A stretch of DNA of 33,775 nt from the IMG/VR virus record IMGVR_UViG_2671180456_000007, positions 1 through 33,775 of that record; one strand, written 5' to 3'. Made by a program: the position numbers and the translations under genes. The notes beneath the pieces were generated by a model that ran no database searches, had not been told where the DNA came from, and saw nothing but the letters and a program-made list of their open reading frames with translations. The stretch's first letter is position 1. Each line of letters opens with the position of its first letter. Shown here in pieces: positions 7,764-21,887 of this stretch. Source of the stretch: a virus (taxonomy: Duplodnaviria > Heunggongvirae > Uroviricota > Caudoviricetes).

Positions 7764-7769
7764 AGAGAA

Positions 7770-7798: not shown

Positions 7799-7872
7799 AT
7801 GTGAAGATATTCAGAATTTTTATGCCATTACCGGTTTTAACCAACAGGATTATCGGTGGGCATGAAAGAAAA

Positions 7873-7905
7873 CCCCGGTATCTGCTGATACCGGGGTTTC
7901 TCTTT
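7873..7905. terminator. Bidirectional intrinsic terminator hairpin (10-bp stem CCCCGGTATC/GATACCGGGG, loop TGCT) flanked by T-rich tracts on both strands
   Basis: Perfect 10-bp inverted repeat with a 4-nt loop; TTTCTCTTT follows on the plus strand and TTTTCTTTC on the minus strand. Confidence 0.55.
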
Positions 7906-8275
7906 AGCATGGCAGAAATGTGTTTCATGCTTTTCGGGCGAAGGATATCCGACTTCTGTACGGAATGGCAAGTGGCGGTTAATTTATTCAGGGGAAGGCT
8001 GTATGGGAAAAGGTGGCGGTAAGGCACACACGCCTCGTGAGGCGAAGGATAATCTCAAATCCACGCAGATGATGAGCGTGATTGATGCGATTGGTGAGGG
8101 ACTGATAGAAGGTCCGGTGAAGGGACTGCAGAGTATCCTGGTGAACAAAACCCCGCTGACGGACACGGACGGTAATCCCGTGATACACGGTGTGACGGCG
8201 GTCTGACGCGCCGGGGAGCAGGAGCAGACACCACCGGAAGGCTTTGAGTCCTCCGGTGCTGAAACCGGACTGGGC

Positions 8276-9919
8276 GTGGAAGTGACGAAGGCAAAACCGG
8301 TGACGCGCACCATTACGTCCGCGAACATTGACCGCCTGCGGGTTACCTTCGGGGTGCAGTCACTGGTGCAGACCACGTCAAAGGGTGACCGAAACCCGAC
8401 ATCCGTCCGCCTGCTGATTCAGTTACAGCGTAACGGTAACTGGGTGACAGAAAAGGATGTCACCATTAACGGCAAGACCACCTCGCAGTTTCTGGCGTCG
8501 GTGATTCTGGATAATCTGCCTCCCCGTCCTTTTAACATCCGGATGGTCCGGGAGACAGCGGACAGCACCACGGACCAGCTGCAGAATAAGACGCTGTGGT
8601 CGTCATACACCGAAATCATCGATGTGAAACAGTGCTACCCGAACACGGCCATTGTGGGGCTGCAGGTGGATGCGGAGCAGTTCGGCGGCCAGCAGATGAC
8701 GGTGAACTACCATATCCGCGGTCGCATCATCCAGGTGCCGTCAAACTATGACCCGGAAAAACGCACGTACAGTGGTATCTGGGACGGCAGCCTGAAACCG
8801 GCATACAGCAACAATCCGGCCTGGTGTCTGTGGGACATGCTGACTCACCCGCGCTACGGCATGGGAAAACGTCTGGGGGCGGCGGATGTGGACAAGTGGG
8901 CGCTGTATGCCATCGGGCAGTACTGCGACCAGACGGTCCCGGATAGTTTCGGGGAGACCGAGCCGCGGATGACCTTCAATGCGTACCTGGCACAACAGCG
9001 TAAGGCATGGGACGTGCTCAGTGATTTCTGCTCGGCGATGCGCTGTATGCCGGTATGGAACGGCCAGACGCTGACGTTTGTTCAGGACCGCCCGTCGGAT
9101 GTGGTGTGGCCGTACACCAACAGCGATGTGGTGGTGGATGATAACGGCGTGGGTTTCCGCTACAGCTTCAGTGCCCTGAAGGACCGGCACACGGCGGTGG
9201 AGGTGAATTATACCGACCCGCAGAACGGCTGGCAGACCTCCACGGAACTGGTGGAAGACCCGGAAGCCATACTGCGCTACGGACGCAACCTGCTGAAGAT
9301 GGACGCGTTCGGCTGTACCAGCCGCGGTCAGGCCCACCGTGCCGGACTGTGGGTGATAAAGACCGAACTGCTGGAAACGCAGACGGTGGATTTCACGCTC
9401 GGGTCTCAGGGGCTGCGGCACACACCCGGTGACATCATTGAAATCTGTGATAACGACTATGCCGGGACCCTGACCGGCGGACGTGTCCTGTCCATTGATG
9501 CTGCCACCCGCACTCTGACGCTGGACCGTGAAGTGACACTTCCGGAGACCGGTGCCGCCACGGTGAACCTGATTAACGGCAGCGGTAAGCCGGTGAGTGT
9601 GGACATCACCGAACACCCCGCGCCGGACCGGATACAGGTCAGTACCCTGCCTGATGGTGTGGAGACATACGGGGTGTGGGGACTCTCCCTGCCGTCACTG
9701 CGCCGTCGCCTGTTCCGCTGTGTCTCCGTCCGGGAAAACACGGACGGCACCTTTGCCATCACGGCGGTGCAGCACGTACTGGAAAAAGAAGCCATCGTGG
9801 ATAACGGTGCCCGCTTTGAGCCGCAGTCAGGTTCCCTGAACAGCGTCATCCCACCGGCAGTGCAGCACCTGACGGCCAGTATCTGGCGCAGGCGAAATGG
9901 GACACGCCGCGGGTGGTGA
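8276..9919 (+). CDS. J: J protein central fragment (the frame is open from 8207; GTG at 8276 is the first possible start)
   Basis: 547-aa ORF with lambda J-like sequence ([29 protein letters not shown]... [29 protein letters not shown]...). Confidence 0.6.
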
Positions 9920-11454
9920 AGGGTGTGCGCTTCAGTCTGCGCCTGACCAGTGGTAAGGGAACGGATGCCAGACTGGTGACCACCGCCATCACCGCAGACA
10001 CGGAGCACCGTTTCAGCGGCCTGCCGCTCGGGGAATACACCCTGACGGTGCGGGCGATAAACAGCTATGGCCAGCAGGGTGAACCTGCCACCACCACCTT
10101 CCGGATTGCCGCACCGGCAGCACCGTCGCGGATTGAGCTGACGCCGGGCTATTTTCAGATAACCGCAACGCCGCATCTTGCCGTTTATGACCCGACGGTA
10201 CAGTTTGAGTTCTGGTTCTCGGAAAAGCGGATTGCGGATATCAGGCAGGTTGAAACCACAGCACGCTATCTTGGCACGGCGCTGTACTGGATAGCCGCCA
10301 GTATCAATATCAAACCGGGCCATGATTATTATTTTTACGTTCGCAGTGTGAACACCGTTGGCAAATCGGCATTCGTGGAGGCTGTCGGTCGGGCGAGCGA
10401 TGATGCGGAAGGTTACCTGGATTTTTTCAAAGGAGAGATAGGGAAAACACATCTGGCTCAGGAGCTGTGGACGCAGATTGATAACGGTCAGCTTGCGCCT
10501 GACCTGGCTGAAATCAGGACGTCCATTACGGATGTCAGCAATGAAATCACGCAGACTGTCAATAAGAAACTGAAAGACCAGAGTGCGGCAATCCAGCAGA
10601 TACAGAAGGTTCAGGTTGATACAAATAATAATCTGAACAGCATGTGGGCTGTGAAGCTGCAACAGATGAAGGACGGACGCCTTTATATTGCGGGTATCGG
10701 TGCCGGTATTGAGAATACGCCAGCAGGAATGCAGAGTCAGGTGCTGCTGGCGGCAGACAGGATTGCGATGATTAATCCTGCGAATGGCAACACAAAGCCG
10801 ATGTTTGTTGGTCAGGGCGATCAGATATTCATGAACGACGTGTTCCTGAAACGCCTGACGGCTCCCACCATTACCAGCGGCGGTAATCCTCCGGCATTTT
10901 CCCTGACACCGGACGGAAAACTGACCGCTAAAAATGCAGATATCAGTGGCAGTGTGAATGCGAACGCCGGGACGCTCAACAATGTCACAATTAATGAGAA
11001 CTGTCAGATTAAGGGGAAACTGTCAGCCAACCAGATTGAAGGCGATATAGTCAAAACAGTGGGTAAGGCTTTTCCGCGGGACTCCCGGGCACCGGAGCGG
11101 TGGCCATCAGGGACCATTACCGTCAGGATTTATGACGATCAGCCTTTTGACAGGCAAATTGTTATTCCGGCGGTGGCATTCAGCGGCGCTAAACATGAGC
11201 GGGAGAATAACGATATTTATTCGTCATGCCGCCTGATAGTACGGAAAAACGGTGCTGAAATTTATAACCGTACCGCGCTGGATAATACGCTGATTTACAG
11301 TGGTGTTATTGATATGCCAGCTGGTCGCGGCCACATGACGCTGGAGTTTTCGGTGTCAGCATGGCTGGTGAATAACTGGTATCCCACAGCAAGTATCAGC
11401 GATTTGCTGGTTGTGGTGATGAAGAAAGCCACCGCAGGCATCAGTATCAGCTGA
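9913..11454 (+). CDS. J: J protein C-terminal fragment (fibronectin-like repeats and receptor-binding end)
   Basis: 513-aa ORF; ...[54 protein letters not shown]... is lambda J-like. Confidence 0.6.
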
Positions 11455-11473
11455 ATTTTATAACCCATATACG

Positions 11474-11500
11474 GGCGCCAGAAATGGCGCCTTTTTTATT
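11474..11500 (+). terminator. Rho-independent terminator after J (stem GGCGCCA/TGGCGCC, loop GAAA, T6 tract)
   Basis: GGCGCCAGAAATGGCGCCTTTTTTATT immediately downstream of the J stop codon. Confidence 0.65.
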
Positions 11501-11521
11501 GCAGAAAAGCGAGAGGTAATT

Positions 11522-12121
11522 ATGCGTAAAGTTTGTGCAGCCATTTTGTCCGCAGCCATCTGTCTGTCCGTATCCGGTGCGCCTGCATGGGCGTCTGAAC
11601 ATCAGTCCACACTGAGCGCGGGGTATCTTCATGCCCGTACGAACGCTCCCGGCAGCGATAATCTGAACGGGATTAACGTGAAATACCGTTATGAGTTTAC
11701 GGACGCGCTGGGGCTGATTACGTCCTTCAGTTATGCCAATGCTGAGGATGAGCAAAAAACGCACTACAGCGATACCCGCTGGCATGAAGATTCCGTGCGT
11801 AACCGCTGGTTCAGCGTGATGGCGGGGCCGTCTGTACGCGTGAATGAATGGTTCAGCGCGTATGCGATGGTGGGTGTGGCTTACAGCCGTGTGTCGACTT
11901 TCTCCGGGGATTATCTCCGCGTAACTGACAACAAGGGGAAAACGCACGATGTGCTGACCGGAAGTGATGACGGTCGCCACAGCAACACGTCTCTGGCGTG
12001 GGGGGCTGGCGTGCAGTTTAACCCGACCGAATCCGTGACCATTGACCTTGCTTATGAAGGTTCCGGTAGTGGTGACTGGCGAACGGATGCATTTATTGTT
12101 GGTATCGGATACCGTATCTGA
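11522..12121 (+). CDS. lom: Lom outer membrane protein (Ail/Lom family beta-barrel)
   Basis: 199-aa ORF with a signal peptide (MRKVCAAILSAAICLSVSGAPAWA) and a C-terminus ...AFIVGIGYRI typical of lambda Lom; lambda-like position downstream of J; RBS GAGAGG. Confidence 0.9.
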   Translation: MRKVCAAILSAAICLSVSGAPAWASEHQSTLSAGYLHARTNAPGSDNLNGINVKYRYEFTDALGLITSFSYANAEDEQKTHYSDTRWHEDSVRNRWFSVMAGPSVRVNEWFSAYAMVGVAYSRVSTFSGDYLRVTDNKGKTHDVLTGSDDGRHSNTSLAWGAGVQFNPTESVTIDLAYEGSGSGDWRTDAFIVGIGYRI

Positions 12122-12224
12122 CAACAGACGCCGATTTATCTTCTGTAAATATTGTTATGATACGCAGGTTCATCCACCTTATGGGGTGAACTGCGTTTGA
12201 GGAAACGTAAAGTTACACTGTCCT

Positions 12225-12258
12225 GAAGCCCGTGGCGTCACTGCTGCGGGCTTTTTTT
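12225..12258 (+). terminator. Possible rho-independent terminator between lom and the tail fiber gene (stem AGCCCG/CGGGCT, T7 tract)
   Basis: GAAGCCCG ...14 nt... CGGGCTTTTTTTAT; the loop is large, so confidence is moderate. Confidence 0.4.
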
Positions 12259-12272
12259 ATTGGTGGAAAAGT

Positions 12273-15200
12273 ATGACAGTAAAAATTTCTGGCGTGCTTA
12301 AAGATGGCACAGGAAAACCAGTACAGAACTGCACCATTGTGCTGAAGGCCAGACGAACCAGCAGCACGATGGTGGTGAACACGGTGGCCTCTGAAAATCC
12401 GGATGAAGCCGGACGTTACAGCATGGATGTTGAGCATGGTCAGTACAGCGTCACCCTGCTGGTTGAAGGTTTTCCGCCTTCACATGCCGGGACCATTACC
12501 GTCTATGAAGGTTCCAGACCAGGTACGCTGAATGATTTTCTCGGTGCCATGACGGAGGATGATGTCCGACCGGAGGCACTGCGCCGCTTTGAGCAGATGG
12601 TGGAAGAGGTGTCACGTAACGCCTCCGCGGTTGCACAGAATACGGCAGCCGCGAAAAAATCAGCCAGCGAGGCGGCAACTCATGCAACCGATGCTGCAGC
12701 CTCAGCACGTGCCGCCAGCACGTCAGCCGGACAGGCCGCGTCGTCGGCTCAGTCAGCGTCTTCCAGCGCAGGAACGGCATCGACAAAGGCCCGTGAAGCA
12801 GCAAAAAGTGCTGCTGCAGAGTCATCAAAAAGCGCGGCAGCTACCAGCGCCAGTGCCGCGAAAACGTCAGAAACGAATGCCGCAGCATCACAAAAATCGG
12901 CAGCCACTTCTGCATCCACAGCGACCACGAAGGCGTCAGAAGCTGCCACCTCGGCACGGGGTGCGGCGGCCTCAAAAGAGGCAGCGAAATCTTCAGAAAC
13001 GAATGCATCATCAAGTGCCAGTAGTGCAGCTTCCTCGGCAACGGCGGCAGGAAATTCCGCGAAGGCGGCAAAAACGTCCGAGACGAACGCTAAGTCTTCT
13101 GAAACAGCAGCGGGACAGAGCGCCTCAGCTGCGGCAGGTTCAAAAACAGCGGCTGCATTATCTGCCAGTGCCGCGTCAACAAGTGCCGGGCAGGCCTCAG
13201 CCAGTGCCACCGCCGCCGGAAAATCGGCAGAAAGCGCCGCATCATCCGCTTCAACAGCCACAACGAAGGCTGGCAAAGCCACTGAGCAAGCCACTGCAGC
13301 AGCGAGGTCTGCTTCTGCAGCAAAAACCTCTGAAACAAATGCAAAGACTTCAGCAGACAATGCTGCTTCCTCTAAGGCAGCAGCCGCATCGTCAGCCAGT
13401 TCAGCGGCGTCATCGGCATCATCTGCGTCTGCTTCAAAAGATGAGGCGACCAGACAAGCGTCAGCAGCGAAAGGTAGTGCCACGACAGCAACAACGAAAG
13501 CATCAGAGGCGGCAGGCAGTGCGACGGCTGCATCTCAGAGCAAAGTTGCTGCTGAATCCGCGGCAACGCGCGCCGAGACAGCAGCAAAACGGGCAGAGGA
13601 TATTGCATCCGCCGTGGCGCTGGAGGATGCGAGCACGACGAAAAAGGGGATAGTACAGCTCAGCAGTGCGACCAACAGCACATCTGAAACGCTGGCCGCA
13701 ACGCCAAAAGCAGTTAAAGCAGCCAATGACAATGCGAATAGCCGATTGGCGAAGAATCAGAATGGCGCTGATATCCCCGACAAGGCCCGCTTCCTGAGTA
13801 ACATTAATGCTGCCAGCAAGACTGATATGGCCTCTAAACGAGGAATGAAGTATTCGACAGTGAATGCGCCCGCAGGAGTTGAAGCAGGTAAGTTTTATCC
13901 TGTGGTCATTCGTCGTTCTGCTGGATTCGTCGATGAATTAGCATCTAGGGTAACGATAAGCACAAGTTCAAGAACAGGAAACCACAGACTGAACAACTGC
14001 GAGTTCAACGGATTTGTCATGCCCGGTGGTTGGACTGACAGAGGAAAATATGCTTATGGGATGTTTCACGCATATACTGCAAGTGAACGTGCTATTCATT
14101 CTATCATGATGGGTAACAAAGCGGATGATCTTTGTTCTGTGTTCTATGTTGAAGGTGAAGCGTTTCCTATTGCTGTATATGTAGAAGAAGGCTTATCTGT
14201 TGTTGTACCATCTGCCGATTATGTCGTCGGACAAACAACTTACAAATGGGGCGCCACTAACCCTAAAACAGAATGCGTTGCCGCTGATACTATACTTGAT
14301 TTCTCAAATGGTAGAGGGTTTTATAGTTCGCACTCATTCCTCACAAATGCAGACATTAGCGGTAATAAGGTTTACGCTAATGATGAAGTTATTGTCCGTA
14401 GTCAGAATGCGTTAAGGATGATTGCTGGCGATTACGGTGTCATATGGCGAAATGATGGAGCAAATACTTACTTGCTCATGACTGATAAAGGCGACCAGTA
14501 CGGTGGCTGGAACGGTCTTCGACCATTTGCAGTAAATAACGCAACAGGTGAAGTGACGATCAATACACCACTTAATTCTCCAAAAGGGGTTAAGGGGAAC
14601 TCTGATACAGCTACGAAACTTCAGACTGCAAGAAAAATATCCGGTGTTCCATTTGATGGCTCTACTGATATCACTTTAACCGCCGCGCATGTTGCCGCTT
14701 TCGCAAGAAGAGCAACAGGGTCATATGCTGATGCTGATGGCGGCGTGCCGTGGAATGCTGAATCTGGTGCTTATAATGTAAATAGAACGGGCGACAGTTA
14801 TATTCTTGCCAACTTTTATACTGGTGTAGGTGGTTGCCGTACGCTTCAAATTAAGGCTCACTATAAAAATGGTGGGTTGTTTTATCGTTCATCTCGCGAT
14901 GGCTATGGTTTTGAAAGTGGTTGGGAGCAGGTTTACACGACTGGATTTAGACCTCAGCCGGCTGATATAAACGCACCAACCGCTGCCGACGGATGGTTAA
15001 ATAGTGGTAACGGAACAGCATTTACGACTGCTCAGTTTATAACGTGGCTAAATAATCAGGGTGCATTTTCAAACAAATATTGGATTGCACGGTGCTCATG
15101 GTATTACGCCAACAATAATTATATAGACGACACTGGTTGCGGTAGGATCGATCTATCTGGTTCCGTGATTGAGGTGTTTAGTAATAAGACAACAAGCAAT

Positions 15201-17315
15201 TACACTATTCGTGTTACAACGACAACAACATCGGGTCATGGTGGCGTTAATAATGCGGAATTTATTTATGTGTACAATGGCAGTGATTACTCGCCAGGCT
15301 GGCGTCGTTCTTATAATACTAGAAACAAACCAACAGCTTCTGATGTAGGAGCATTATCGCTTTCTGGAGGAGCGTTAACTGGCGGATTAACTGCTGCTGG
15401 CGAGATTATTTCAAAATCGGCGAATGGTCTGCGCATTGCCTACGGAAACTACGGATTCTTTATCCGAAACGATGGTTCAAGCACATACTTCATGTTGACC
15501 GATTCGGGTAACAGCCTGGGAACCTATAATAGTTTAAGGCCGCTTATCATTAACAATGCCAATGGTGCTGTTACGATCGGTAATGGACTCAATGTTACTG
15601 GCGGCATCAATGGTAGTTTGAACGGTAATGCTTCAACAGCTACGAAGTTGCAAACAGCGAGAAACATCAATGGTGTTAAGTTTGATGGTTCAGGCGATAT
15701 CAATATTAATACATTGGTATCTCGTGGCCGAGTTACGGCGTTAAGCGGCTCTACTCAAGGCACTGCTGGCATTCAAATGTATGAGGCGTACAACAATAGC
15801 TACCCGACCACGTATGGCAACGTATTGCACATGAAAGGTGCGAGTGCTGCTGGTGAGGGCGAGTTGCTTATTGGCTGGAGCGGAACGGATGGTGCTCATG
15901 CACCGGTTTATGTTCGTTCACGCCGTGATACTTCGACAGCGAACTGGTCTGGCTGGGCGCAGATCTACACAACTGCTCATAAACCCACTGCGGCTGATGT
16001 CGGTGCGTTGCCGAGCGGTGGCGGCACACTTTCCGGCGCACTCACATTATCTATGGCTGCGCCAAGTGTCCAGTTACGAGGGCAAGGTACGGACACCAGA
16101 CAGTACATCATGGCTTACAGAACCGATGGCGCTACATCATGGTATGTGGGCAAGGCTAACAACGGCTCCGATAATGCGATGTTCTGGAACTATACCGGCT
16201 CCAACGGAATTGAATTGGCTGCCGATGGCAATGTGCGTATTAATGCGAAGGGTAAACAGTTTACGTTCGCAAACAATGGGAACTTAGGTCTTGTTGCTTC
16301 GTTGGATCAGAGTTCAGTTCCACAGGGTACTTACCATCAAGTAGCTCTTAACACTGGCACTGTTGGTGGTAAATCGTACCTTCGAAAATTCCGCGGCGGC
16401 AACACAGACACCATTTGGCATGAGACGGTTCAGGGCGGCTTACTTCGTTGGGCAACCGGCAATGCTGATGAGCAAGAAGAACTGTCTATCAGTACTGGCT
16501 ATGGTGTTCGAGCAAGAGGTGAAATCACTTCCCTTAGCGCCAATGGTCTAAGAGTGGCTTACGGGAATTACGGCTTCTTTATTCGCAATGATGGCGGAAC
16601 AACTTACTTCATGCTGACTGCTTCTGGCGACAAGTTCGGAAGCTGGAATGCTTTGCGTCCAATGTACATTAACAACGCTTCAGGCGCGGTTACGATGGGG
16701 AACGGGTTGTCGCTTGCCGGTGGCTTAAATGTCACGAGCGGAAATATCCGAATCCCGACGTCGAGTACATCTTGGATCGACATGAGAAACAATGCCGCTC
16801 TGTCTAACAGTTCTGCGGTTGCCACTTCCTCTGCATCGGCCATTATTCGTCAGGAGCACGCCGATCGTCATTATTTTGTTGGTGGTTTAGGCAACTCTCA
16901 GTTCGGGTTCTACATGATTAACAAGTCACGAACCGCGAACGGCACGGATGCGAACGCATACCTCCAGAATGACGGTACTTGGGTTTGCGGCGGTAATGGC
17001 AGCTTTAATGACGTTTATATCCGTTCTGACCGCCGTAGTAAGCGCAATATTCGCAAGATTGACCGGGCGCTCGACAAGCTGGAGCAGATCGAAGGTGTTC
17101 TCTACGAGATTCAGGTCTGTGGCCGTTATGAGCAGTCTGGTGGCCTCATCGCTCAGGATGTCCAGAATGTTCAACCTGAACTGGTAACGGTCGACCATAA
17201 CGATCAGTCAGGAGAGCCTCGTCTGCGTCTTAACTACAACGGCGTTATCGGCATGTTGGTTGAGGCTGTCAAAGAGCTGCGCGAGGAAGTGCGCGAACTG
17301 AAGGCAAAAATGTAA
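12273..17315 (+). CDS. stf: Side tail fiber protein, chimeric: lambda Stf-like N-terminus, Ala/Ser-rich repeat segment, three ~100-aa T-even-like distal fiber repeats, C-terminal intramolecular chaperone (peptidase S74-like) domain
   Basis: 1680-aa ORF; N-terminus MTVKISGVLKDGTGKPVQNCTIVLKAR... is lambda Stf-like; repeated AKTSETNA motifs; three repeats of the form (A)NGLR(I/V)AYGNYGFFIRNDG..TYFMLT..G...NSLRP..INNA.GAVT; C-terminal ...DVYIRSDRRSKRNIRKIDRALDKLEQIEGVLYE matches the SDxxxKxNI autoproteolytic chaperone motif. Confidence 0.85.
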   Translation: MTVKISGVLKDGTGKPVQNCTIVLKARRTSSTMVVNTVASENPDEAGRYSMDVEHGQYSVTLLVEGFPPSHAGTITVYEGSRPGTLNDFLGAMTEDDVRPEALRRFEQMVEEVSRNASAVAQNTAAAKKSASEAATHATDAAASARAASTSAGQAASSAQSASSSAGTASTKAREAAKSAAAESSKSAAATSASAAKTSETNAAASQKSAATSASTATTKASEAATSARGAAASKEAAKSSETNASSSASSAASSATAAGNSAKAAKTSETNAKSSETAAGQSASAAAGSKTAAALSASAASTSAGQASASATAAGKSAESAASSASTATTKAGKATEQATAAARSASAAKTSETNAKTSADNAASSKAAAASSASSAASSASSASASKDEATRQASAAKGSATTATTKASEAAGSATAASQSKVAAESAATRAETAAKRAEDIASAVALEDASTTKKGIVQLSSATNSTSETLAATPKAVKAANDNANSRLAKNQNGADIPDKARFLSNINAASKTDMASKRGMKYSTVNAPAGVEAGKFYPVVIRRSAGFVDELASRVTISTSSRTGNHRLNNCEFNGFVMPGGWTDRGKYAYGMFHAYTASERAIHSIMMGNKADDLCSVFYVEGEAFPIAVYVEEGLSVVVPSADYVVGQTTYKWGATNPKTECVAADTILDFSNGRGFYSSHSFLTNADISGNKVYANDEVIVRSQNALRMIAGDYGVIWRNDGANTYLLMTDKGDQYGGWNGLRPFAVNNATGEVTINTPLNSPKGVKGNSDTATKLQTARKISGVPFDGSTDITLTAAHVAAFARRATGSYADADGGVPWNAESGAYNVNRTGDSYILANFYTGVGGCRTLQIKAHYKNGGLFYRSSRDGYGFESGWEQVYTTGFRPQPADINAPTAADGWLNSGNGTAFTTAQFITWLNNQGAFSNKYWIARCSWYYANNNYIDDTGCGRIDLSGSVIEVFSNKTTSNYTIRVTTTTTSGHGGVNNAEFIYVYNGSDYSPGWRRSYNTRNKPTASDVGALSLSGGALTGGLTAAGEIISKSANGLRIAYGNYGFFIRNDGSSTYFMLTDSGNSLGTYNSLRPLIINNANGAVTIGNGLNVTGGINGSLNGNASTATKLQTARNINGVKFDGSGDININTLVSRGRVTALSGSTQGTAGIQMYEAYNNSYPTTYGNVLHMKGASAAGEGELLIGWSGTDGAHAPVYVRSRRDTSTANWSGWAQIYTTAHKPTAADVGALPSGGGTLSGALTLSMAAPSVQLRGQGTDTRQYIMAYRTDGATSWYVGKANNGSDNAMFWNYTGSNGIELAADGNVRINAKGKQFTFANNGNLGLVASLDQSSVPQGTYHQVALNTGTVGGKSYLRKFRGGNTDTIWHETVQGGLLRWATGNADEQEELSISTGYGVRARGEITSLSANGLRVAYGNYGFFIRNDGGTTYFMLTASGDKFGSWNALRPMYINNASGAVTMGNGLSLAGGLNVTSGNIRIPTSSTSWIDMRNNAALSNSSAVATSSASAIIRQEHADRHYFVGGLGNSQFGFYMINKSRTANGTDANAYLQNDGTWVCGGNGSFNDVYIRSDRRSKRNIRKIDRALDKLEQIEGVLYEIQVCGRYEQSGGLIAQDVQNVQPELVTVDHNDQSGEPRLRLNYNGVIGMLVEAVKELREEVRELKAKM

Positions 17316-17381
17316 TCAAGGTGAATGGTGAGGGGCCACCCTCACCAATTCAGGATATTCACATCAAAAAGGAGATTAGAT

Positions 17382-18164
17382 GTGCCAATTGTCGGTGTTC
17401 CCGGTTGGATTGGGTCTTCGGCTGTCAGTGTGACAGGCCAGAGATGGATGAGTGCGGCTCGAACGGCGGTGCAACTGCCAGCGGCTGGTTCAATGTCTCA
17501 AATGGCCGGGCGATCTAAAGAAGTTCAGTACAGCATCGGTGCGAATCATAACTACAACAAAGACACACTGATCAACTATTTAAAATCCCAGGGGGCGACG
17601 CCAGTCGTTGTTACCATTACAGGGGATCTGGTGTCGTACAGTAGCGGCGTGCCATGTTTAGATTTCCCGAGTTCACTTACCAACTCTTATATCAGCCTTG
17701 TAATCAACGCAGGTGTGACTGTCTATGGACGCGGTGGCAATGGTGGTAGTAACGCTGCCGGTGCTGCTGGTGGTAACGCAATTAATAATGGCATCGGTAC
17801 ACGCTTGCGTATTACGAATAATGGTGCAATCGCTGGAGGTGGTGGCGGCGGTGGCGGCGGTAACAGGGGTCGACTAGTATTTGGTGGTGGCGGTGGGTGC
17901 CCATTCGGTGCTGGTGGGTCTTCCTCTCATATGAGTTCCGGTGCAACTGCTGGTACTATTTCCGCTCCTGGTAAGGGATCTGTTGGTGAGGGGTCTCTTA
18001 GTGCATATACAGGCGGTTCGGGTGGTAATGTCGGTGCTGCTGGAGGAAGATGTAATACTCAAGGTAACGGTACAGAATATAACGGCGGGGCAGCTGGTAA
18101 AGCCGTAACTGGCAACGCGCCTACATGGACTAAAGCTGGGGCAATTTACGGCGCTCATGTGTAA
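17382..18164 (+). CDS. Glycine-rich tail fiber adhesin, gp38-like (T2/T6-type receptor-recognising protein)
   Basis: GTG start 7 nt after the RBS AAGGAG; N-terminus (M)PIVGVPGWIGSSAVSVTGQRWM resembles the T2-type gp38 N-terminus as I recall it; the C-terminal half has poly-Gly motifs (GGGGGGGGGNRG, GGGGG) alternating with variable segments; located directly downstream of the fiber gene. The start codon is uncertain. Confidence 0.5.
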   Translation: MPIVGVPGWIGSSAVSVTGQRWMSAARTAVQLPAAGSMSQMAGRSKEVQYSIGANHNYNKDTLINYLKSQGATPVVVTITGDLVSYSSGVPCLDFPSSLTNSYISLVINAGVTVYGRGGNGGSNAAGAAGGNAINNGIGTRLRITNNGAIAGGGGGGGGGNRGRLVFGGGGGCPFGAGGSSSHMSSGATAGTISAPGKGSVGEGSLSAYTGGSGGNVGAAGGRCNTQGNGTEYNGGAAGKAVTGNAPTWTKAGAIYGAHV

Positions 18165-18238
18165 GTACTTACCTACCAAGTGTGGGCGTTTTATGATATA
18201 AAACCGCCATCCCGATTTGACTTTTCATGGAGGAAAAC

Positions 18239-18562
18239 ATGTCGAACGAGATGGCGGGCGTTACAACAGAGCAAGTTGAGCGTATTGCCGCGATCGTTGC
18301 TCGGGAGGTTGTTGGCAAATTAGGTAAAGAGCTACGTGAAGAAATTGGCCAGGAGGTCAATGATCAGCTGAAAACCTACTTTGGTGATATGACCCCGGCG
18401 CAACATAGTATTCAACACTCCAATCTGGACAAACTCCTTAACCGGTTAGATTCCATCTCAAGTGGGTTCTTTGGCGGCATTGTTTCTAAAATAACGTCGT
18501 TCATTATTACCGCACTGCTTTTGGGGTTAGCCGCGTATGGCGTAAAAAGTGGACTGCAATAA
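18239..18562 (+). CDS. Small tail-anchored membrane protein (acidic N-terminal domain, single C-terminal TM helix); function unknown, possibly holin-like or antiholin-like
   Basis: ATG at 18239 has RBS GGAGG 5 nt upstream; C-terminal hydrophobic helix ITSFIITALLLGLAAYGV. Confidence 0.5.
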   Translation: MSNEMAGVTTEQVERIAAIVAREVVGKLGKELREEIGQEVNDQLKTYFGDMTPAQHSIQHSNLDKLLNRLDSISSGFFGGIVSKITSFIITALLLGLAAYGVKSGLQ

Positions 18563-18575
18563 CAGGAGATCAAGG

Positions 18576-19268
18576 ATGAAAACTCCGAGAGGCATTCGTA
18601 ATAACAACCCTGGCAACCTCGACAAAGGTTCGCCGTGGCAGGGGCTAATCGACAACCCTGCCGAACCGCGCTTTTGCACGTTTAAAGACCCTGTTTGGGG
18701 GATTCGTGCGCTGGCGGTGACTCTAATTACCTACCACGACAAACGTCGCGCAAAAGACGGCTCAAGTATCGATACCATTCGTGAAGTTATTGAACGTTGG
18801 GCACCGCCGAATGAAAACAATACTGACGCCTACATTAATGAGGTGTCTAAAGCCGTTGGTGTAACCGCAGACATGATTATCGATCTGCATGATTACGACA
18901 TTCTTCGACCTTTGGTTGAGGCAATCATTCGCCATGAGAATGGGCGAGGTCCGCTAAAAACGCTGAACACCTGGTATGCGGCAGAAGTTATTGAGGAAGG
19001 TCTGCGTCGAGCTGGCGTTGTTAAGCCGGCGAAAACCGTGAAGGCTGTTCCTGTAACTAAAGAAACCGCAGGCGCAACTGTTACAGCAGGTATTGGTCTG
19101 GCGCAGCTGGCCGATGTTATGCCGCAGGTTTCCGCTGCTATGGATAAAGCACAAGGTCATATCTCTAGCGGGGATACAGTACGCATCATCTTCGGTATTG
19201 CCACTATTGTTGTGGCAGGATTCATTGCCTGGTCGCAGGTAAGAAAACACCAGAAAGGGATGGTCTAA
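18576..19268 (+). CDS. Conserved phage protein with N-terminal GIRNNNPGNL motif and C-terminal TM anchor; candidate cell-wall-acting or lysis-associated protein
   Basis: ATG at 18576 has RBS AGGAG 7 nt upstream; motif RGIRNNNPGNL near the N-terminus; C-terminal TM helix IIFGIATIVVAGFIAW. Function inferred only from context. Confidence 0.5.
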   Translation: MKTPRGIRNNNPGNLDKGSPWQGLIDNPAEPRFCTFKDPVWGIRALAVTLITYHDKRRAKDGSSIDTIREVIERWAPPNENNTDAYINEVSKAVGVTADMIIDLHDYDILRPLVEAIIRHENGRGPLKTLNTWYAAEVIEEGLRRAGVVKPAKTVKAVPVTKETAGATVTAGIGLAQLADVMPQVSAAMDKAQGHISSGDTVRIIFGIATIVVAGFIAWSQVRKHQKGMV

Positions 19269-19269
19269 T

Positions 19270-19521
19270 ATGCTAGGCAGCCTGATGACAAAGCTAAAAG
19301 TTGCTTTGATTACGCTGGCTGCCGTTCTTTTCGTTCTTGTCGGCGCTTACACGATGGGCGGGAATGCGGCGCGACGAGCAATGGAAGAGAAGGCAAAACA
19401 GGAAGACAGAAAACGACTTCAAAACACAGTGAAAGTGGTGAATGAGACGAGCAGTAAAATACGTCAGAAAGATGCTTCTGCCGTTCATCGTGAGTTGTAT
19501 GATAAGTGGGTGCGTCATTAA
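19270..19521 (+). CDS. i-spanin-like (Rz-like) small inner-membrane protein
   Basis: 83 aa; N-terminal TM helix (LKVALITLAAVLFVLVGAY) followed by a charged, probably helical domain; another gene overlaps its 3' end in a different frame. Confidence 0.45.
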   Translation: MLGSLMTKLKVALITLAAVLFVLVGAYTMGGNAARRAMEEKAKQEDRKRLQNTVKVVNETSSKIRQKDASAVHRELYDKWVRH

Positions 19522-19657
19522 GCCACAAACCACTAGCGTGTTGTTCTGCGATGGCGCTGAACCTATTTATATCAGCAATGACGATGTAATGACCGAAGAA
19601 ACCGAACGCCAAATCCTTTTTCACAATACGATGGGAGAGAGAGTTTGCGGTTGGTGA
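19442..19657 (+). CDS. Outer-membrane lipoprotein overlapping the previous gene out of frame (o-spanin Rz1-like; alternatively a Cor/Llp-like superinfection-exclusion lipoprotein)
   Basis: Lipobox-like MISGC after a hydrophobic signal segment (MLLPFIVSCMISGC); starts inside the Rz-like gene in another frame and extends beyond its stop (overlapped spanin architecture). Confidence 0.45.
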   Translation: MRRAVKYVRKMLLPFIVSCMISGCVIKPQTTSVLFCDGAEPIYISNDDVMTEETERQILFHNTMGERVCGW

Positions 19658-19666
19658 TGTCGAAGT

Positions 19667-19684
19667 TCCCCTCAAATGAGGGGG
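19667..19684. terminator. Hairpin between convergent genes (stem TCCCCTC/GAGGGGA, loop AAAT); probable bidirectional terminator
   Basis: 7-bp GC-rich inverted repeat between the lipoprotein gene (+) and the GNAT toxin gene (-). Confidence 0.4.
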
Positions 19685-19689
19685 ACACA

Positions 19690-20211
19690 TTATTCTTCGA
19701 ACAATTTTTCGATAGATTTTGTAGAATAGAACAAAGAACGCTCGTTGTTACCAACCAGCTGGATAAAGCCCAAACTTTTATAAAACGCCCTGGCTTTATC
19801 GTTCAACGCCTCAACGAAAAGCCCATGAATGCCTACCGCAAGAGATGCATTGTACACAACACGCATTGCGTGAGTTACAAGCATTGAGCCAAGCCCCTGA
19901 CCTTGAAGAGATTTGTCCAAAGCCAGTCTGCCTAAAGTGATACTTGGGACATTCCGATAAGGCACTTTCTTTTGCTGACTCTTTGAAGGTAAGGTTTCTT
20001 TCTCAAAGCAGCTGCCTGACAAAGTGTAATAACCTAATACCTTTGGTATTTCTTCTTTAGTGCAAAGCACATAAGCGCGAAGAATTTTTCCTTCATGCTG
20101 TCTTTTTAAGTGGTTGGTCAAAAATGCGTTTAGTGACTCTTCGCCGCAATCAAAACCGTTTAGATCATAATCGTTCTCTCCAGAGAAAATCTCGATCGTC
20201 GTATTGCTCAC
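19690..20211 (-). CDS. GNAT-family acetyltransferase toxin (TacT/AtaT/KacT-like, tRNA-acetylating type)
   Basis: 173-aa ORF; acetyl-CoA-binding motif region GRLALDKSLQGQGLG; immediately downstream of, and co-directional with, a DUF1778-like antitoxin gene. Confidence 0.8.
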   Translation of the reverse strand: MSNTTIEIFSGENDYDLNGFDCGEESLNAFLTNHLKRQHEGKILRAYVLCTKEEIPKVLGYYTLSGSCFEKETLPSKSQQKKVPYRNVPSITLGRLALDKSLQGQGLGSMLVTHAMRVVYNASLAVGIHGLFVEALNDKARAFYKSLGFIQLVGNNERSLFYSTKSIEKLFEE

Positions 20212-20218
20212 GAGTAAA

Positions 20219-20488
20219 TTACTCCATGCTTTTCAGACGATTGGCAGCTCGTTTCAGCTTGTCGTTCGGTGCTGGAGGATTGCTTATAGCATCCATAACC
20301 AGATTCCAGGACTCTTCACTTAGAACCAGTCTACGGTGTTGCTCTATCACCTTCACGGCACGTTCGGATGCACTGCTAACCATGAACTGGGTAATGCTCT
20401 GGTTAGACATTGCGGCAGCTTCCTCGATGATGCTTTTATCGTCATCGGTTAATCTCAAATCGATGCGCTGCTTTTTCAGTGCGGACAT
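20219..20488 (-). CDS. DUF1778-family antitoxin (TacA/AtaR/KacA-like, ribbon-helix-helix)
   Basis: 89-aa ORF MSALKKQRIDLRLTDDDKSIIEEAAAMSNQSITQFMVSSASERA...; RHH-like N-terminus; 7-nt gap to the toxin gene. Confidence 0.8.
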   Translation of the reverse strand: MSALKKQRIDLRLTDDDKSIIEEAAAMSNQSITQFMVSSASERAVKVIEQHRRLVLSEESWNLVMDAISNPPAPNDKLKRAANRLKSME

Positions 20489-20543
20489 GTGTACCCCCTG
20501 ATGGCCGGTGATGTAGGAAGGCCATCATTGCTCTCTATTTAAA

Positions 20544-20637
20544 CTGAGTTTTCGACTCAAAGGTTATTTAACTGGGCTATAGCCCATTGCGTATGTGTCA
20601 TCAAATTGTGTACGGCAATTTACCGTACTCGTAATAT
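20544..20637. promoter_or_regulatory. Cluster of short palindromes in the parA/toxin-antitoxin divergent region (GGGCTATAGCCC at 20573-20584; GTACGG-N7-CCGTAC at 20619-20637; TGAGT-N5-ACTCA at 20544-20558): candidate operators or centromere-like sites
   Basis: Perfect inverted repeats read directly in the 320-bp AT-rich spacer between the divergent antitoxin and parA genes. Confidence 0.35.
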
Positions 20638-20807
20638 AGAGATGATTGTCACTTTTTTCAACAGACAAATGAAAACAGTTACTAGCAATAGGCAATAACA
20701 ACCTACTAAATAACCTTTACACCGCAGCCGTAGGCATTTAGGCTATATCACATATAAGAAAACAAGTTGTTTCAGACGATAATTATATACGCAAAGGGAA
20801 CTCTCCA

Positions 20808-21476
20808 ATGACCAAGATCTTTGTGGTTGGCGGCACAAAGGGCGGGCCTGGCAAATCCACTGTTGCCCAGCAAATTGCCGTTTGCCTGAAAGTCAAAAAG
20901 AAGAAGAAGGTTTATATCACTGATATAGATATTCAGCGCACGACAACAAGCTGGTGTGAAGACCGTAGACAGAACGAAGACCTTGAGCTGATTCCTTTTG
21001 CATACGTTCAGGATGACATCATTAAGCACCTAAAATCGCTTCAGGGTAGAGCTGAGTTTGTAGTGGTAGATGCTGGTGGCTTTGACTCCGAAATTCAGCG
21101 ACAAGCGATGCTGATGGCCGACGTTATCATTATCCCGCTTCGTCCTAAGCGTCGTGATTTGAAATCTCTGCGTGACATCGATCCTATTATCGACAATGTT
21201 CGTAATGTAAACGATAAAGTGAAGGTCCGCGCGGTCATGAACCAGTGCCCGGCTTTGCCATCACAAGTGTCTCGCATTCTGGCGGCTAAAGAGATTGTTG
21301 AGACGTTTGGCATCGAGTCTGCGCCAGTCAATCTATATAACCGCAACGTCTACGATGATGCGGAAGAGTCTGGTCGTTCTATCTTTGAAATGACCGGTAG
21401 CGAGCGCGACAAAAAGGCGGAAGCCGAGTTTGAAGAATTTGTAGATTATCTGTTGAGTCTGGAGGAAGAAGAATAA
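20808..21476 (+). CDS. parA: ParA/Soj-family partition ATPase (small, type Ib-like)
   Basis: 222 aa; deviant Walker A motif GGTKGGPGKST near the N-terminus; followed by a small RHH-like protein gene overlapping by 1 nt. Confidence 0.85.
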   Translation: MTKIFVVGGTKGGPGKSTVAQQIAVCLKVKKKKKVYITDIDIQRTTTSWCEDRRQNEDLELIPFAYVQDDIIKHLKSLQGRAEFVVVDAGGFDSEIQRQAMLMADVIIIPLRPKRRDLKSLRDIDPIIDNVRNVNDKVKVRAVMNQCPALPSQVSRILAAKEIVETFGIESAPVNLYNRNVYDDAEESGRSIFEMTGSERDKKAEAEFEEFVDYLLSLEEEE

Positions 21477-21835
21477 TGTCCATGAAAATGGGTGACCTAG
21501 CAAAGCGCAAAGAGCCTGATGCACCGGCCAAGAACACAACTCCTTTGCGCCAACCAGTCAGACCACAGGGACGCCCGACTCGTGGCAAAGAGAAAATTAA
21601 AAGCCGCACAATGTCACTGGAGGACGAATACTTCGAACTGCTGGAGATGATGAAGTTCATCCCTCGCTTCGAGAAGTTCACTCGTTCTGACGTGATTCGT
21701 GCTGCTATTTTCCATCTGGCAGAGAAGTCACCGCAGGAAATCGAGGACATCGTGAAATTGAATGAGGCGATCACCGCTGCCGATGTCACGATGCGTACCG
21801 ATGAAATCAAACGAGAGTTGATGAAGAAAGGTTAA
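21476..21835 (+). CDS. Small ParG-like centromere-binding protein (basic disordered N-terminal tail plus ribbon-helix-helix-like C-terminus)
   Basis: 119 aa; Lys/Arg/Pro-rich N-terminal 45 aa then ...KSRTMSLEDEYFELLEMM...RSDVIRAAIFHLA; TAATG coupling to parA. Confidence 0.55.
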   Translation: MSMKMGDLAKRKEPDAPAKNTTPLRQPVRPQGRPTRGKEKIKSRTMSLEDEYFELLEMMKFIPRFEKFTRSDVIRAAIFHLAEKSPQEIEDIVKLNEAITAADVTMRTDEIKRELMKKG

Positions 21836-21838
21836 AAA

Positions 21839-21873
21839 TTATGCATTGGCGCAATGTACGCGCCAATGCATAA
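21839..21873. terminator. Bidirectional terminator hairpin between convergent genes (14-bp stem TTATGCATTGGCGC/GCGCCAATGCATAA, loop AATGTAC)
   Basis: Perfect 14-bp inverted repeat located between the parG-like stop (21835) and the GIY-YIG gene stop (21888). Confidence 0.6.
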
Positions 21874-21887
21874 CTACAGTGTCAGCT

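What the first reader, a model, noticed from the sequence alone, without database searches (positions are those of the whole stretch)
12273..18164. Chimeric tail fiber locus: lambda Stf N-terminus, T-even-like distal repeats, intramolecular chaperone, and a glycine-rich gp38-like adhesin gene
The 1680-aa fiber combines (i) a lambda Stf-like N-terminal anchor, (ii) an Ala/Ser-rich region with reiterated AKTSETNA-type units, about 12640-13650, which is a likely recombination hotspot, (iii) three ~100-aa repeats of the kind found in T-even distal fiber proteins, and (iv) a C-terminal SDRRSKRNI intramolecular chaperone module that is normally cleaved off. Immediately downstream, a ~260-aa protein with an (M)PIVGVPGWIGSSAV... 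N-terminus and poly-Gly motifs flanking variable segments resembles T2-type gp38 adhesins. An autoprocessed fiber plus a separate tip adhesin in a lambda-tailed phage is an unusual receptor-binding arrangement.
Basis: partly seen in the sequence, partly recalled or inferred. Interest (0 to 1): 0.55.

Follow-up and report, generated by a model that had tools for sequence, protein, structure and literature searches.

The report
Phage-plasmid T2-type fibre, doubtful lambdoid fusion
The fibre and glycine-rich adhesin are real, but they are the ordinary T2-type receptor-binding module of a common Shigella/E. coli phage-plasmid, and its apparent fusion to a lambda-type fibre head comes from a draft contig joining a dead chromosomal prophage to the plasmid within 59 shared bases, more likely an assembly error than biology.

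Summary
Observation confirmed. ORF 12273-17315 (1680 aa) has a lambda Stf N-terminus, an Ala/Ser-rich region, three gp34-type repeats and a C-terminal S74 chaperone. The 17382-18164 product is a true gp38 adhesin (Pfam 3e-70; model TM 0.80 to S16 gp38).

- A self-cleaving fibre capped by gp38 is the canonical T2/S16 arrangement, not an unusual one.
- The pair is native to SSU5-supergroup phage-plasmids. Their fibres have a different N-terminus, and the same distal part (99.9% nt).
- The window is a whole Shigella sonnei draft contig. Bases 3522-13681 match the S. sonnei chromosome, a lambdoid remnant with a broken J gene whose native Stf is 918 aa followed by Tfa. From 13623 onward it is phage-plasmid DNA. 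The switch lies in a 59-bp tract identical in both.
- No closed genome or plasmid shows this or two other such joins. All 264 complete E. coli genomes with this backbone carry it on plasmids.
- A sister assembly from the same project has wrong joins marked by N-gaps at phage tail genes.

I put a misjoin at about 0.6 and a real recombinational cointegrate at about 0.33. Similar hybrids in other draft assemblies keep the second option open. Low-to-moderate interest.

The parts
1..13681 (+). Chromosomal lambdoid prophage remnant of Shigella sonnei: head-tail and tail genes, a split J gene, lom, and the 5' 1.4 kb of stf.
   Evidence: Window 3522-13717 matches the strain 53G chromosome (HE616528.1, L094) at 99.86%. 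There are no mismatches in 12273-13681, and the first mismatch is at 13682. The same gene order, with J split into 547+513 aa, occurs in several complete S. sonnei chromosomes.
7681..11454 (+). J (central tail fibre) pseudogene in three pieces: 7681-8022, 8276-9919 and 9913-11454.
   Evidence: tblastn against an intact 1165-aa J shows a frame change near 9.9 kb, and there is an in-frame stop between 8022 and 8276. The split is identical in complete chromosomes.
11522..12121 (+). lom (Ail/Lom outer membrane protein).
   Evidence: Pfam Ail_Lom 2e-125. The exact protein was used to find the native chromosomal context.
12273..17315 (+). The 1680-aa tail fibre ORF as it stands in the contig. Residues up to about 450-470 are chromosomal Stf, and the remainder is phage-plasmid fibre.
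12273..12674 (+). Lambda Stf-type N-terminal anchor (aa 1-134).
   Evidence: Pfam phage_tail_N 8e-69. PDB 9e7m_Ta 'tail fiber protein' matches aa 1-94 at 1.5e-46.
12854..13681 (+). Region homologous between lambdoid stf and phage-plasmid fibre genes. It covers the Ala/Ser-rich part and the conserved KKGIVQLSSATNST motif.
   Evidence: The two versions are about 90-97% identical here, with exact tracts of 51, 74 and 68 bp plus the final tract. Phage-plasmid megablast matches all begin at 12854.
13623..13681 (+). The 59-bp switch tract, identical in the S. sonnei chromosome and the phage-plasmid.
   Evidence: The last mismatch against the plasmid parent L010 is at 13622. The first mismatch against chromosome 53G is at 13682.
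13623..33775 (+). SSU5-supergroup phage-plasmid segment: distal fibre, gp38, lysis genes, TacT/TacA-like toxin-antitoxin pair, ParA, DnaB-like helicase, primase-like gene, ligase and integrase-like gene.
   Evidence: Only 4 mismatches against L010 over 13623-18164. Window 18200-25000 is 99.4% identical to plasmid pEC16-2. Gene content.
14196..14531 (+). Shaft repeat 1 (aa 642-753), Gp34_trimer type.
   Evidence: Pfam best stretch; self-BLAST.
15336..15611 (+). Shaft repeat 2 (aa 1022-1113).
   Evidence: Self-BLAST shows 63% identity to repeat 3. T4 gp34 structures match aa 1025-1258.
16464..16730 (+). Shaft repeat 3 (aa 1398-1486).
   Evidence: Self-BLAST. Mu S (5yvq) matches aa 1408-1595.
16773..17024 (+). 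Mu S-like distal domain ending in DVYIR. This is the predicted mature tip and gp38 docking surface.
   Evidence: 5yvq_A E=1.5e-26. The DVYIR motif is that of T2-like fPS phages (PMC7917993).
17025..17312 (+). Intramolecular chaperone (aa 1585-1680, Peptidase S74), predicted to be cleaved off at R1584|S1585.
   Evidence: Pfam PF13884. Alignment to S16 gp37 6F45_A pairs SDRRsK with SDRRiK. Positions.
17327..17346 (+). GC-rich hairpin (8-bp stem, 4-nt loop) between the fibre stop codon and the gp38 ribosome-binding site. It has no T-run.
   Evidence: Read directly from the sequence. It was not reported by the terminator scan.
17382..18164 (+). gp38-type tail fibre adhesin (260 aa, GTG start).
   Evidence: Pfam GP38 3e-70 and Gp38_N 1e-14. 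6F45_D E=1.3e-47. The AF2 model has pLDDT 91 and TM 0.80/0.83 to 6F45_D. W9 and W22 are invariant and there are ten Gly runs.
18227..19657 (+). Phage-plasmid lysis cassette: phrog_5093 protein, endolysin-like protein, Rz-like spanin and an overlapping Rz1-like ORF.
   Evidence: PHROG hits; ORFs.

Best explanation
What is there (shown). The distal fibre and the gene after it form a T2/S16-type long-fibre tip module that belongs to an SSU5-supergroup phage-plasmid of Shigella sonnei and E. coli.

How it works (inferred from the S16/T2 precedent). The fibre protein trimerises with the help of its own C-terminal S74 chaperone. The chaperone then cuts itself off between R1584 and S1585, using Ser1585 and Lys1590. 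This exposes a DVYIR tip, onto which the gp38 adhesin docks through its N-terminal domain (W9, W22). The loops of gp38's polyglycine-sandwich domain bind the host receptor, probably an outer-membrane porin or the LPS core.

The native fibre. In the native element the fibre has a different, plasmid-type N-terminus (MWYREGTITF...) that mounts it on the plasmid's own J-like tail tip.

The lambda end. The lambda Stf N-terminus in this window comes from a separate replicon, a defective lambdoid remnant in the S. sonnei chromosome. Its own stf encodes a 918-aa protein and is followed by Tfa genes and an invertible segment. The contig switches from chromosome to plasmid within a 59-bp identical tract (13623-13681) at the end of a roughly 0.8-kb region that the two fibre genes share.

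How the join arose (my judgement). Most likely the join was made during short-read assembly, scaffolding or gap closing. If so, the 1680-aa lambda-headed fibre is not a protein the cell makes.

Confidence. The figure of 0.6 is for the whole statement including the misjoin. The identity and mechanism of the module alone I hold at above 0.9.
For: Module identity:
- Pfam, PHROG and PDB sequence hits.
- Fold match to S16 gp38.
- The published mechanism and the DVYIR^SD cleavage context (PMC7917993).

Native to phage-plasmids:
- pEC16-2 encodes a 1685-aa fibre with a different N-terminus, followed by gp38.
- P0001/L010 is identical to the window fibre from aa 427 to the end apart from one residue, and differs at only 4 nt over 4.5 kb.
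- The S74+gp38 end occurs in 35 of 5426 complete E. coli genomes. 34 of these are on plasmids of about 105-140 kb (two larger), and the one chromosomal hit is partial.
- None of 80 native lambdoid loci has the S74 tip or gp38.

Left half is chromosome:
- It is 99.86% identical to strain 53G, with no mismatches in stf up to 13681.
- The J gene is split in the same way, and the native Stf is 918 aa followed by Tfa.

Artefact reading:
- The backbone is in 264 of 5426 complete genomes, at 495 places, all on plasmids.
- No complete genome, plasmid or phage record spans the junction of the window, of L005 or of L009.
- SSU5-type elements are reported as exclusively extrachromosomal in complete genomes (PMC9600943).
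- Sister-assembly contig L097 is a mosaic that contradicts all complete chromosomes, and its N-gaps of 9, 1 and 1 N sit exactly at the joins.
- The switch lies at the very end of the collinear homology, where contigs would break and then be merged.
- In the other draft hybrids the contig runs for about one plasmid length after the join and then ends: 107.7, 107.8 and 109.4 kb.
- S. sonnei is noted as hard to assemble from short reads (bioRxiv 2025.09.12.675607).
Against: - Lambda-N/plasmid-distal hybrids recur in at least five other draft assemblies. These come from other projects and use different alleles and different switch points: the left edge of the shared region in P0127, about aa 325-375 in L009, and the right edge here.
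- From my own knowledge, and not verifiable here, several of those accession series are SKESA assemblies. SKESA rarely misjoins across exact repeats of 74 bp or less.
- The window has no Ns, and the switch is single and clean.
- A 59-bp tract is shorter than most Illumina reads, so only short reads or small k would confuse an assembler. The read length is unknown.
- Hybrids are rare enough that finding none among 264 closed plasmid carriers does not exclude real events.
- P1-like phage-plasmids have been found integrated next to resident prophages (PMC10879196).
Confidence: 0.6

Rival explanations
1. The join is real. Homologous recombination within the shared fibre-gene region fused the circular phage-plasmid into the chromosomal lambdoid remnant by a single crossover. 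The result is a cointegrate carrying a lambda-N/plasmid-distal hybrid fibre at one junction and the reciprocal hybrid at the other.
For: - The switch sits in an exact 59-bp tract, long enough for RecA- or Red-type recombination, and it is clean.
- Several other exact tracts of 51, 74 and 68 bp exist, and other hybrids switch at other places within the region, as independent crossovers would.
- Hybrids recur in independent assemblies, including a 216-kb contig that runs from chromosome through an intact lambdoid tail into the plasmid backbone.
- There is a precedent of P1-like phage-plasmids integrated beside prophages.
- Chromosomal lambdoid Stf genes in closed genomes already contain segments homologous to the plasmid fibre, which shows past exchange between the two gene families (one search hits H82 and H90).
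Against: - None of 264 complete E. coli genomes with the backbone has it in the chromosome, and no closed record holds any of the three hybrid junctions tested.
- The literature reports the SSU5 type as exclusively extrachromosomal.
- A pure cointegrate gives the assembler no reason to stop at the second junction, yet the long hybrid contigs end after about one plasmid length.
- The same project's pipeline demonstrably misjoins phage tail regions.
- A cointegrate made through 90%-identical DNA should be rare and reversible, so its fixation in several isolates needs an explanation.
Confidence: 0.33
2. One reading: a functional lambda-tailed temperate phage that natively uses a self-processing side fibre capped by a gp38 adhesin.
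For: The gene order J-lom-fibre-gp38 is contiguous in the contig. Stf-type N-termini do mount fibres on lambda-like tails.
Against: - J is a pseudogene here and in all complete S. sonnei chromosomes examined.
- The genes after gp38 are plasmid partition and replication genes, not lambdoid genes.
- None of 80 native lambdoid loci has S74 or gp38.
- The native stf of this very prophage encodes 918 aa and is followed by Tfa.
Confidence: 0.03
3. The phage-plasmid itself captured a lambdoid patch (J C-terminus, lom and Stf-N) by double crossover. It would then remain a plasmid but carry a lambda-type fibre anchor.
For: Contigs L006 and L009 are about plasmid-sized (109.9 and 111.7 kb) and begin with only lom, or with the J C-terminus and lom, before the hybrid fibre. 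Both J-type proteins share the Phage_Tail_Tip domain.
Against: In the window the lambdoid part extends at least 13.6 kb upstream, and at least 10 kb of it is identical to the chromosome. In L005 it extends about 100 kb. No complete plasmid shows such a patch.
Confidence: 0.04

Closest known systems
Salmonella phage S16 / T2-type long tail fibre tip (gp37 with C-terminal intramolecular chaperone, plus gp38 adhesin; PDB 6F45)
   Same: The adhesin has the same Pfam families and the same fold: E=1.3e-47 and TM 0.80/0.83 to 6F45_D. It has conserved N-terminal Trp residues and polyglycine motifs. The fibre C-terminus aligns to S16 gp37, including the SDRRxK cleavage and catalytic motif. The gene order fibre-then-adhesin is the same (PMC7917993).
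   Different: The host element is a temperate, siphovirus-type phage-plasmid rather than a virulent T-even myovirus. The domain just before the tip is Mu S-like rather than S16-like. The shaft is one long protein with an Ala/Ser-rich region, not a gp34-37 assembly.
SSU5 / pHCM2-supergroup phage-plasmids of E. coli and Shigella (e.g. pEC16-2 NZ_CP074122.1, S. sonnei NZ_CP034066.1, phage CMS-2020a)
   Same: From 13623 to the end of the window the sequence is 97-99.9% identical and collinear with these plasmids. This covers the distal fibre, gp38, lysis genes, toxin-antitoxin pair, ParA and helicase.
   Different: Their fibre starts with a plasmid-type N-terminus (MWYREGTITF..., no Pfam hit) and sits behind the plasmid's own J-like gene. 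The window instead has a lambda Stf N-terminus and chromosomal lambdoid genes upstream.
Lambda side tail fibre Stf with Tfa chaperone (and the native S. sonnei 53G stf)
   Same: The first 1.4 kb of the gene is identical to the 53G chromosomal stf. It has the phage_tail_N domain, the Ala/Ser-rich region and the conserved KGIVQLSSA motif.
   Different: Native Stf proteins end in a Tfa-dependent tip, here within an invertible segment. The window's ORF ends in an S74 chaperone and has gp38 in place of Tfa.
Mosaic tail fibre genes shared among lambda, P2, Mu, P1 and T-even phages (classical horizontal exchange of fibre segments; own knowledge)
   Same: The fibre has segments homologous to T4 gp34, Mu S and lambda Stf, and the switches fall at conserved motifs.
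   Different: In this window the last 'exchange' joins two replicons of one cell within a draft contig, and it may not be biological.

Membership tests
T2-type gp38 tail fibre adhesin (PF05268 + PF21721) | N-terminal gp37-attachment domain with conserved tryptophans | tested here: met
   Gp38_N 9.7e-15. W9 and W22 are invariant across 26 homologues and align to S16 gp38.
T2-type gp38 tail fibre adhesin (PF05268 + PF21721) | C-terminal polyglycine-rich receptor-binding domain with the S16 gp38 fold | tested here: met
   GP38 3e-70 over profile positions 1-217 of 218. Ten Gly runs and 34% Gly in aa 110-260. The AF2 model has pLDDT 91.1 and TM 0.80/0.83 to 6F45_D, and 0.74-0.86 to PP01 gp38.
T2-type gp38 tail fibre adhesin (PF05268 + PF21721) | Encoded directly after a fibre gene whose tip is exposed by chaperone cleavage | tested here: met
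   The gene starts 66 nt after the fibre stop codon. The fibre ends in DVYIR|SDRRSK plus an S74 domain.
T2-type gp38 tail fibre adhesin (PF05268 + PF21721) | Present at the fibre tip in virions and binds the receptor | not testable with these tools
   Needs virion mass spectrometry and adsorption assays.
Peptidase S74 intramolecular chaperone | S74 domain at the extreme C-terminus of a trimeric fibre | tested here: met
   PF13884, 42.9 bits against a cut-off of 22, at aa 1585-1639. It aligns to the S16 gp37 chaperone region in 6F45_A.
Peptidase S74 intramolecular chaperone | Ser nucleophile at the cleavage site with Lys five residues downstream | tested here: met
   S1585 and K1590 in SDRRSK align with SDRRIK of S16, whose cleavage site is published.
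Peptidase S74 intramolecular chaperone | Autoproteolytic release after trimerisation | not testable with these tools
   Needs protein expression or mass spectrometry.
Lambda-type side tail fibre (Stf/Tfa) | phage_tail_N anchor domain | tested here: met
   PF08400 8e-69. 9e7m_Ta 1.5e-46.
Lambda-type side tail fibre (Stf/Tfa) | Tfa (Caudo_TAP) assembly chaperone encoded downstream | tested here: not met
   There is no Caudo_TAP gene after the window's fibre. The native S. sonnei stf does have one.
Functional lambdoid prophage tail | Intact J tip protein | tested here: not met
   J has a frameshift and an in-frame stop. It is split identically in complete chromosomes.
SSU5-supergroup phage-plasmid | Collinear backbone with partition and replication genes next to phage genes | tested here: met
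   99.4% identity to pEC16-2 over 18200-25000. ParA/MipZ, DnaB-like helicase, ligase and integrase-like genes are present.
SSU5-supergroup phage-plasmid | Extrachromosomal, circular replicon in this isolate | not testable with these tools
   Only a 33.8-kb draft contig is available. In closed genomes all 495 places are on plasmids.

The most novel reading that the evidence does not exclude
SSU5-type phage-plasmids, so far seen only as free plasmids, would occasionally integrate into resident lambdoid prophages by homologous recombination within the conserved Ala/Ser-rich part of the tail fibre genes. This would happen recurrently in Shigella and E. coli. Each event would fuse lambda-type fibre anchors to T2-type self-processing tips with gp38 adhesins, and would create the reciprocal fusion on the plasmid's own tail. 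That would be a one-step swap of host range between two unrelated temperate phages, and a route by which a plasmid-borne prophage becomes chromosomal.
Probability: 0.33. Interest if true: 0.55.

Novelty: new member of a known kind. Interest (0 to 1): 0.28.

Why it matters
- If the join is an artefact, the practical lesson is that tail-fibre 'chimeras' in draft contigs can be cross-replicon misjoins, and that this protein (GenBank CSR45558.1) should not be used as a natural receptor-binding-protein design.
- The real module still matters modestly. A T2-type gp38 adhesin up to 85% identical to those of virulent T4-like phages sits on a temperate phage-plasmid found in about 18% of UK S. sonnei isolates. 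That points to recent exchange of host-range determinants between virulent and temperate phages. It also suggests which receptors this clinically widespread element uses.
- If the join is real, it would be the first evidence of chromosomal integration of an SSU5-type phage-plasmid, and a simple mechanism for swapping host range between phage types.

Tried and rejected
- Taking 12854 as the junction, because all plasmid megablast hits start there. Rejected: that position is only the start of the shared homology, and the true switch is at 13623-13681.
- Using 'samples_with_this_contig = 2' as independent support. Rejected: complete chromosomes show the same value, so it probably reflects duplicate records.
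- Testing whether the position of the switch discriminates assembler collapse (switch at a boundary) from recombination (switch anywhere). Inconclusive: the window and P0127 switch at boundaries, while L009 switches mid-region, and the 59-bp tract is one of four comparable tracts.
- Searching viral contigs for the exact 92-nt junction. No hits.
- Checking the single chromosomal gp38 hit in a closed genome (H125) as a possible verified hybrid. It is a different, non-lambdoid prophage.
- Treating P0079/L012 as a reciprocal product. It has a plasmid-type N-terminus with a Collar-type distal part and runs off the contig end, so I cannot tell a reciprocal hybrid from a native variant.
- Comparing right-hand contig breakpoints with a Logan plasmid contig. 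The breakpoints differ, so this was uninformative.
- NCBIfam gave no hits for the fibre, the adhesin or the lysis proteins.
- I could not confirm which assembler or read length produced any of the draft assemblies.


Full report
**1. Observation**

- A 1680-aa ORF lies at 12273-17315, followed by an ORF ending at 18164.
- Pfam on the large protein finds phage_tail_N (aa 1-134, 8e-69), three Gp34_trimer stretches (6e-83), a gp37_trimer stretch, and Peptidase_S74 at aa 1585-1639 (42.9 bits against a cut-off of 22).
- The Ala/Ser/Thr fraction is 0.73-0.78 over aa 121-420, and there are four K[TS]SETNA units.
- Self-comparison places three shaft repeats at about aa 642-753, 1022-1113 and 1398-1486.
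- The downstream gene is best read from the GTG at 17382, which has an AAGGAG site upstream. RefSeq annotates it the same way in related plasmids.
- Its 260-aa product hits Pfam GP38 (3e-70) and Gp38_N (1e-14).

**2. The receptor-binding module**

*The adhesin.*
- It matches the solved S16 gp38 over nearly its whole length (6F45_D, E=1.3e-47).
- An AlphaFold model built from 26 homologues has pLDDT 91.1. It superposes on 6F45_D with TM 0.80/0.83, and the only significant PDB matches are gp38 structures.
- W9 and W22 are invariant in the family alignment, and there are ten glycine runs.

*The fibre C-terminus.*
- It aligns to the S16 gp37 fragment in the same crystal, with SDRRSK opposite SDRRIK.
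- The published work on S16 and T2-like phages says the last ~113 residues of gp37 are an intramolecular chaperone. It is autocleaved at DLNVS^SDRRIKK (DVYIR^SDGRLKI in the fPS phages), and this exposes the docking surface for gp38 (PMC7917993).
- The window reads DVYIR|SDRRSKR. I therefore predict cleavage at R1584|S1585, release of a 96-aa chaperone, and gp38 capping the tip.
- A processed fibre plus a separate adhesin is thus the canonical T2-type design, not an odd combination.
- The domain just before DVYIR is Mu S-like (5yvq, E=1.5e-26).

**3. Whose module it is**

- Megablast shows the window is two things. Bases 48 to about 12.6-13.7 kb match lambdoid prophages, and 12854 onward matches non-mobilizable plasmids of about 105-120 kb. 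No record spans both.
- In plasmid pEC16-2 the fibre is 1685 aa. It has a different N-terminus (MWYREGTITF..., no Pfam hit), sits behind the plasmid's own J-like gene, and is followed by the same gp38, lysis genes, toxin-antitoxin pair, ParA and helicase.
- A plasmid-type fibre (P0001, locus L010) is identical to the window protein from aa 427 to the end apart from one residue. It differs at only 4 nt over 13623-18164.
- The S74+gp38 end occurs in 35 of 5426 complete E. coli genomes, 34 of them on plasmids.
- Among 80 native lambdoid loci with a Stf N-terminus, none has the S74 tip or gp38.
- These plasmids are SSU5/pHCM2-supergroup phage-plasmids, which are present in about 18% of UK S. sonnei isolates (bioRxiv 2025.09.12.675607).

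**4. What the left half is**

- The window is the entire 33,775-bp contig CXDZ01000040.1 of a Shigella sonnei draft genome.
- Looking up its exact Lom protein found the native context in complete S. sonnei chromosomes such as 53G. There is the same tail module with J split into 547+513 aa, the same Lom, then a native 918-aa Stf followed by Tfa genes and a 2.95-kb invertible segment.
- The window is 99.86% identical to 53G over 3522-13717, with no mismatches in stf up to 13681.
- J is broken, so this is a defective remnant and not a working lambda-type tail.

**5. The junction**

- Against the chromosome, the first mismatch is at 13682. Against the plasmid parent, the last mismatch is at 13622. 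The contig therefore switches replicon inside a 59-bp identical tract that encodes the conserved KKGIVQLSSATNST motif.
- This tract lies at the right end of a roughly 0.8-kb region where the two fibre genes are 90-97% identical. That region also contains exact tracts of 51, 74 and 68 bp.
- GC content falls from 0.56 to 0.46 across the join, and the window contains no Ns.

**6. Real or artefact?**

*For an artefact.*
- The plasmid backbone is in 264 of 5426 complete E. coli genomes, at 495 places, all on plasmids.
- None of three different hybrid architectures (the window, L005 and L009) occurs in any complete genome, PLSDB plasmid or phage record.
- The literature states that SSU5-type elements are exclusively extrachromosomal in complete genomes (PMC9600943).
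- A contig from a sister assembly of the same project (L097) strings P2 baseplate genes, a foreign J allele, the 53G segment and P2 genes together. This contradicts every complete chromosome. Its N-gaps of 9, 1 and 1 N sit exactly at the joins, so that pipeline scaffolds and nearly closes gaps across phage tail homologies.
- The other long hybrid contigs run for about one plasmid length after the join and then stop, as a walk once round a circle would.

*For a real event.*
- Lambda-N/plasmid-distal hybrids recur in at least five other draft assemblies, with different alleles and different switch points.
- One of them lies on a 216-kb contig with an intact J gene.
- Several of those accession series are, to my knowledge, SKESA assemblies, which seldom misjoin over repeats this short. 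I could not verify this here.
- A 59-bp tract is ample for recombination.
- P1-like phage-plasmids have been found integrated next to prophages (PMC10879196).
- Hybrids are rare enough that finding none among 264 closed carriers is not decisive.

*My judgement.* I put a misjoin at about 0.6 and a real single-crossover cointegrate at about 0.33. Only read-level or long-read data can settle it.

**7. Comparison and novelty**

- The module is a member of the T2/S16 gp37-IMC/gp38 system, and every sequence-level defining feature I tested was met.
- Its setting on a temperate phage-plasmid appears in database annotation as 'receptor-recognizing protein'. I found no paper that describes it; a search for gp38 together with SSU5 returned one unrelated paper.
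- The adhesin is up to 85% identical to that of virulent phage JSE. This indicates recent exchange between virulent and temperate phages.
- The headline 'lambda-tailed phage with gp38' is not supported.

**8. Verdict**

The claimed oddity is ordinary, and the lambda fusion is doubtful. Interest is low to moderate. It would rise to moderate if read data prove recombinational integration.

Noticed in passing
window 7681-11454: The lambdoid J gene is a pseudogene, with an in-frame stop and a frameshift near 9.9 kb. It is split identically (547+513 aa) in complete S. sonnei chromosomes, so it is an old, fixed defect.
   Followed up: yes
L094 10591-13540 (53G chromosome); inverted in L095 and L100: The native distal end of the S. 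sonnei stf lies in a 2.95-kb invertible segment with opposed Tfa genes and a small resolvase ORF nearby. Both orientations occur among complete genomes.
   Followed up: partly
L097 3732-3740, 7066, 13266: A sister-assembly contig from the same project is a mosaic of P2-like and lambdoid tail genes. Its N-gaps sit exactly at the three incoherent joins, which is direct evidence of scaffolding errors in that pipeline.
   Followed up: yes
L008 15983-20342 (E. coli TO6 chromosome NZ_LS992166.1): A different, non-lambdoid chromosomal siphophage (with a serine recombinase, next to the csg genes) carries a fibre gene plus a gp38-like adhesin (67% aa identity) between its head and tail-tube genes. gp38 adhesins therefore occur in several temperate phage types.
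   Followed up: partly
window 17382-18164: The adhesin is 85% identical to gp38 of virulent phage JSE and 80% to that of phage 236Ecol005PP, and there is a DNA-level hit to a Krischvirus. This suggests recent transfer between virulent T4-like phages and the temperate phage-plasmid.
   Followed up: partly
window 16773-17024: The fibre domain just before the cleavage site is Mu S-like (5yvq, E=1.5e-26). Only the last five residues (DVYIR) and the chaperone are T2-like, so the mosaic boundary is very tight.
   Followed up: partly
window 19442-19657: A 71-aa ORF overlaps the end of the Rz-like spanin gene (19270-19521) in another frame. It has a lipobox-like ISGC and is a likely Rz1-type outer-membrane spanin.
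   Followed up: no
window 19690-20488 (minus strand): A GNAT toxin plus DUF1778/TacA-like antitoxin pair lies between the lysis cassette and parA. It is conserved in the phage-plasmid family.
   Followed up: no
window 17327-17346: A GC-rich 8-bp-stem hairpin without a T-run lies between the fibre stop codon and the gp38 ribosome-binding site. It might affect coupling or relative expression of the two genes.
   Followed up: no
window 12225-12254: A strong terminator-like hairpin (13 pairs followed by a T-run) lies between lom and the stf start codon.
   Followed up: no
L012 10001-14043 (GCA_043997615.1): A fibre with the plasmid-type N-terminus has a Collar domain in its distal part and runs off the contig end. 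It is either a native plasmid variant or a reciprocal hybrid.
   Followed up: partly
window 1-12272 vs 17316-33775: GC content is 0.56 in the lambdoid part and 0.46 in the plasmid part, consistent with two separate origins.
   Followed up: yes
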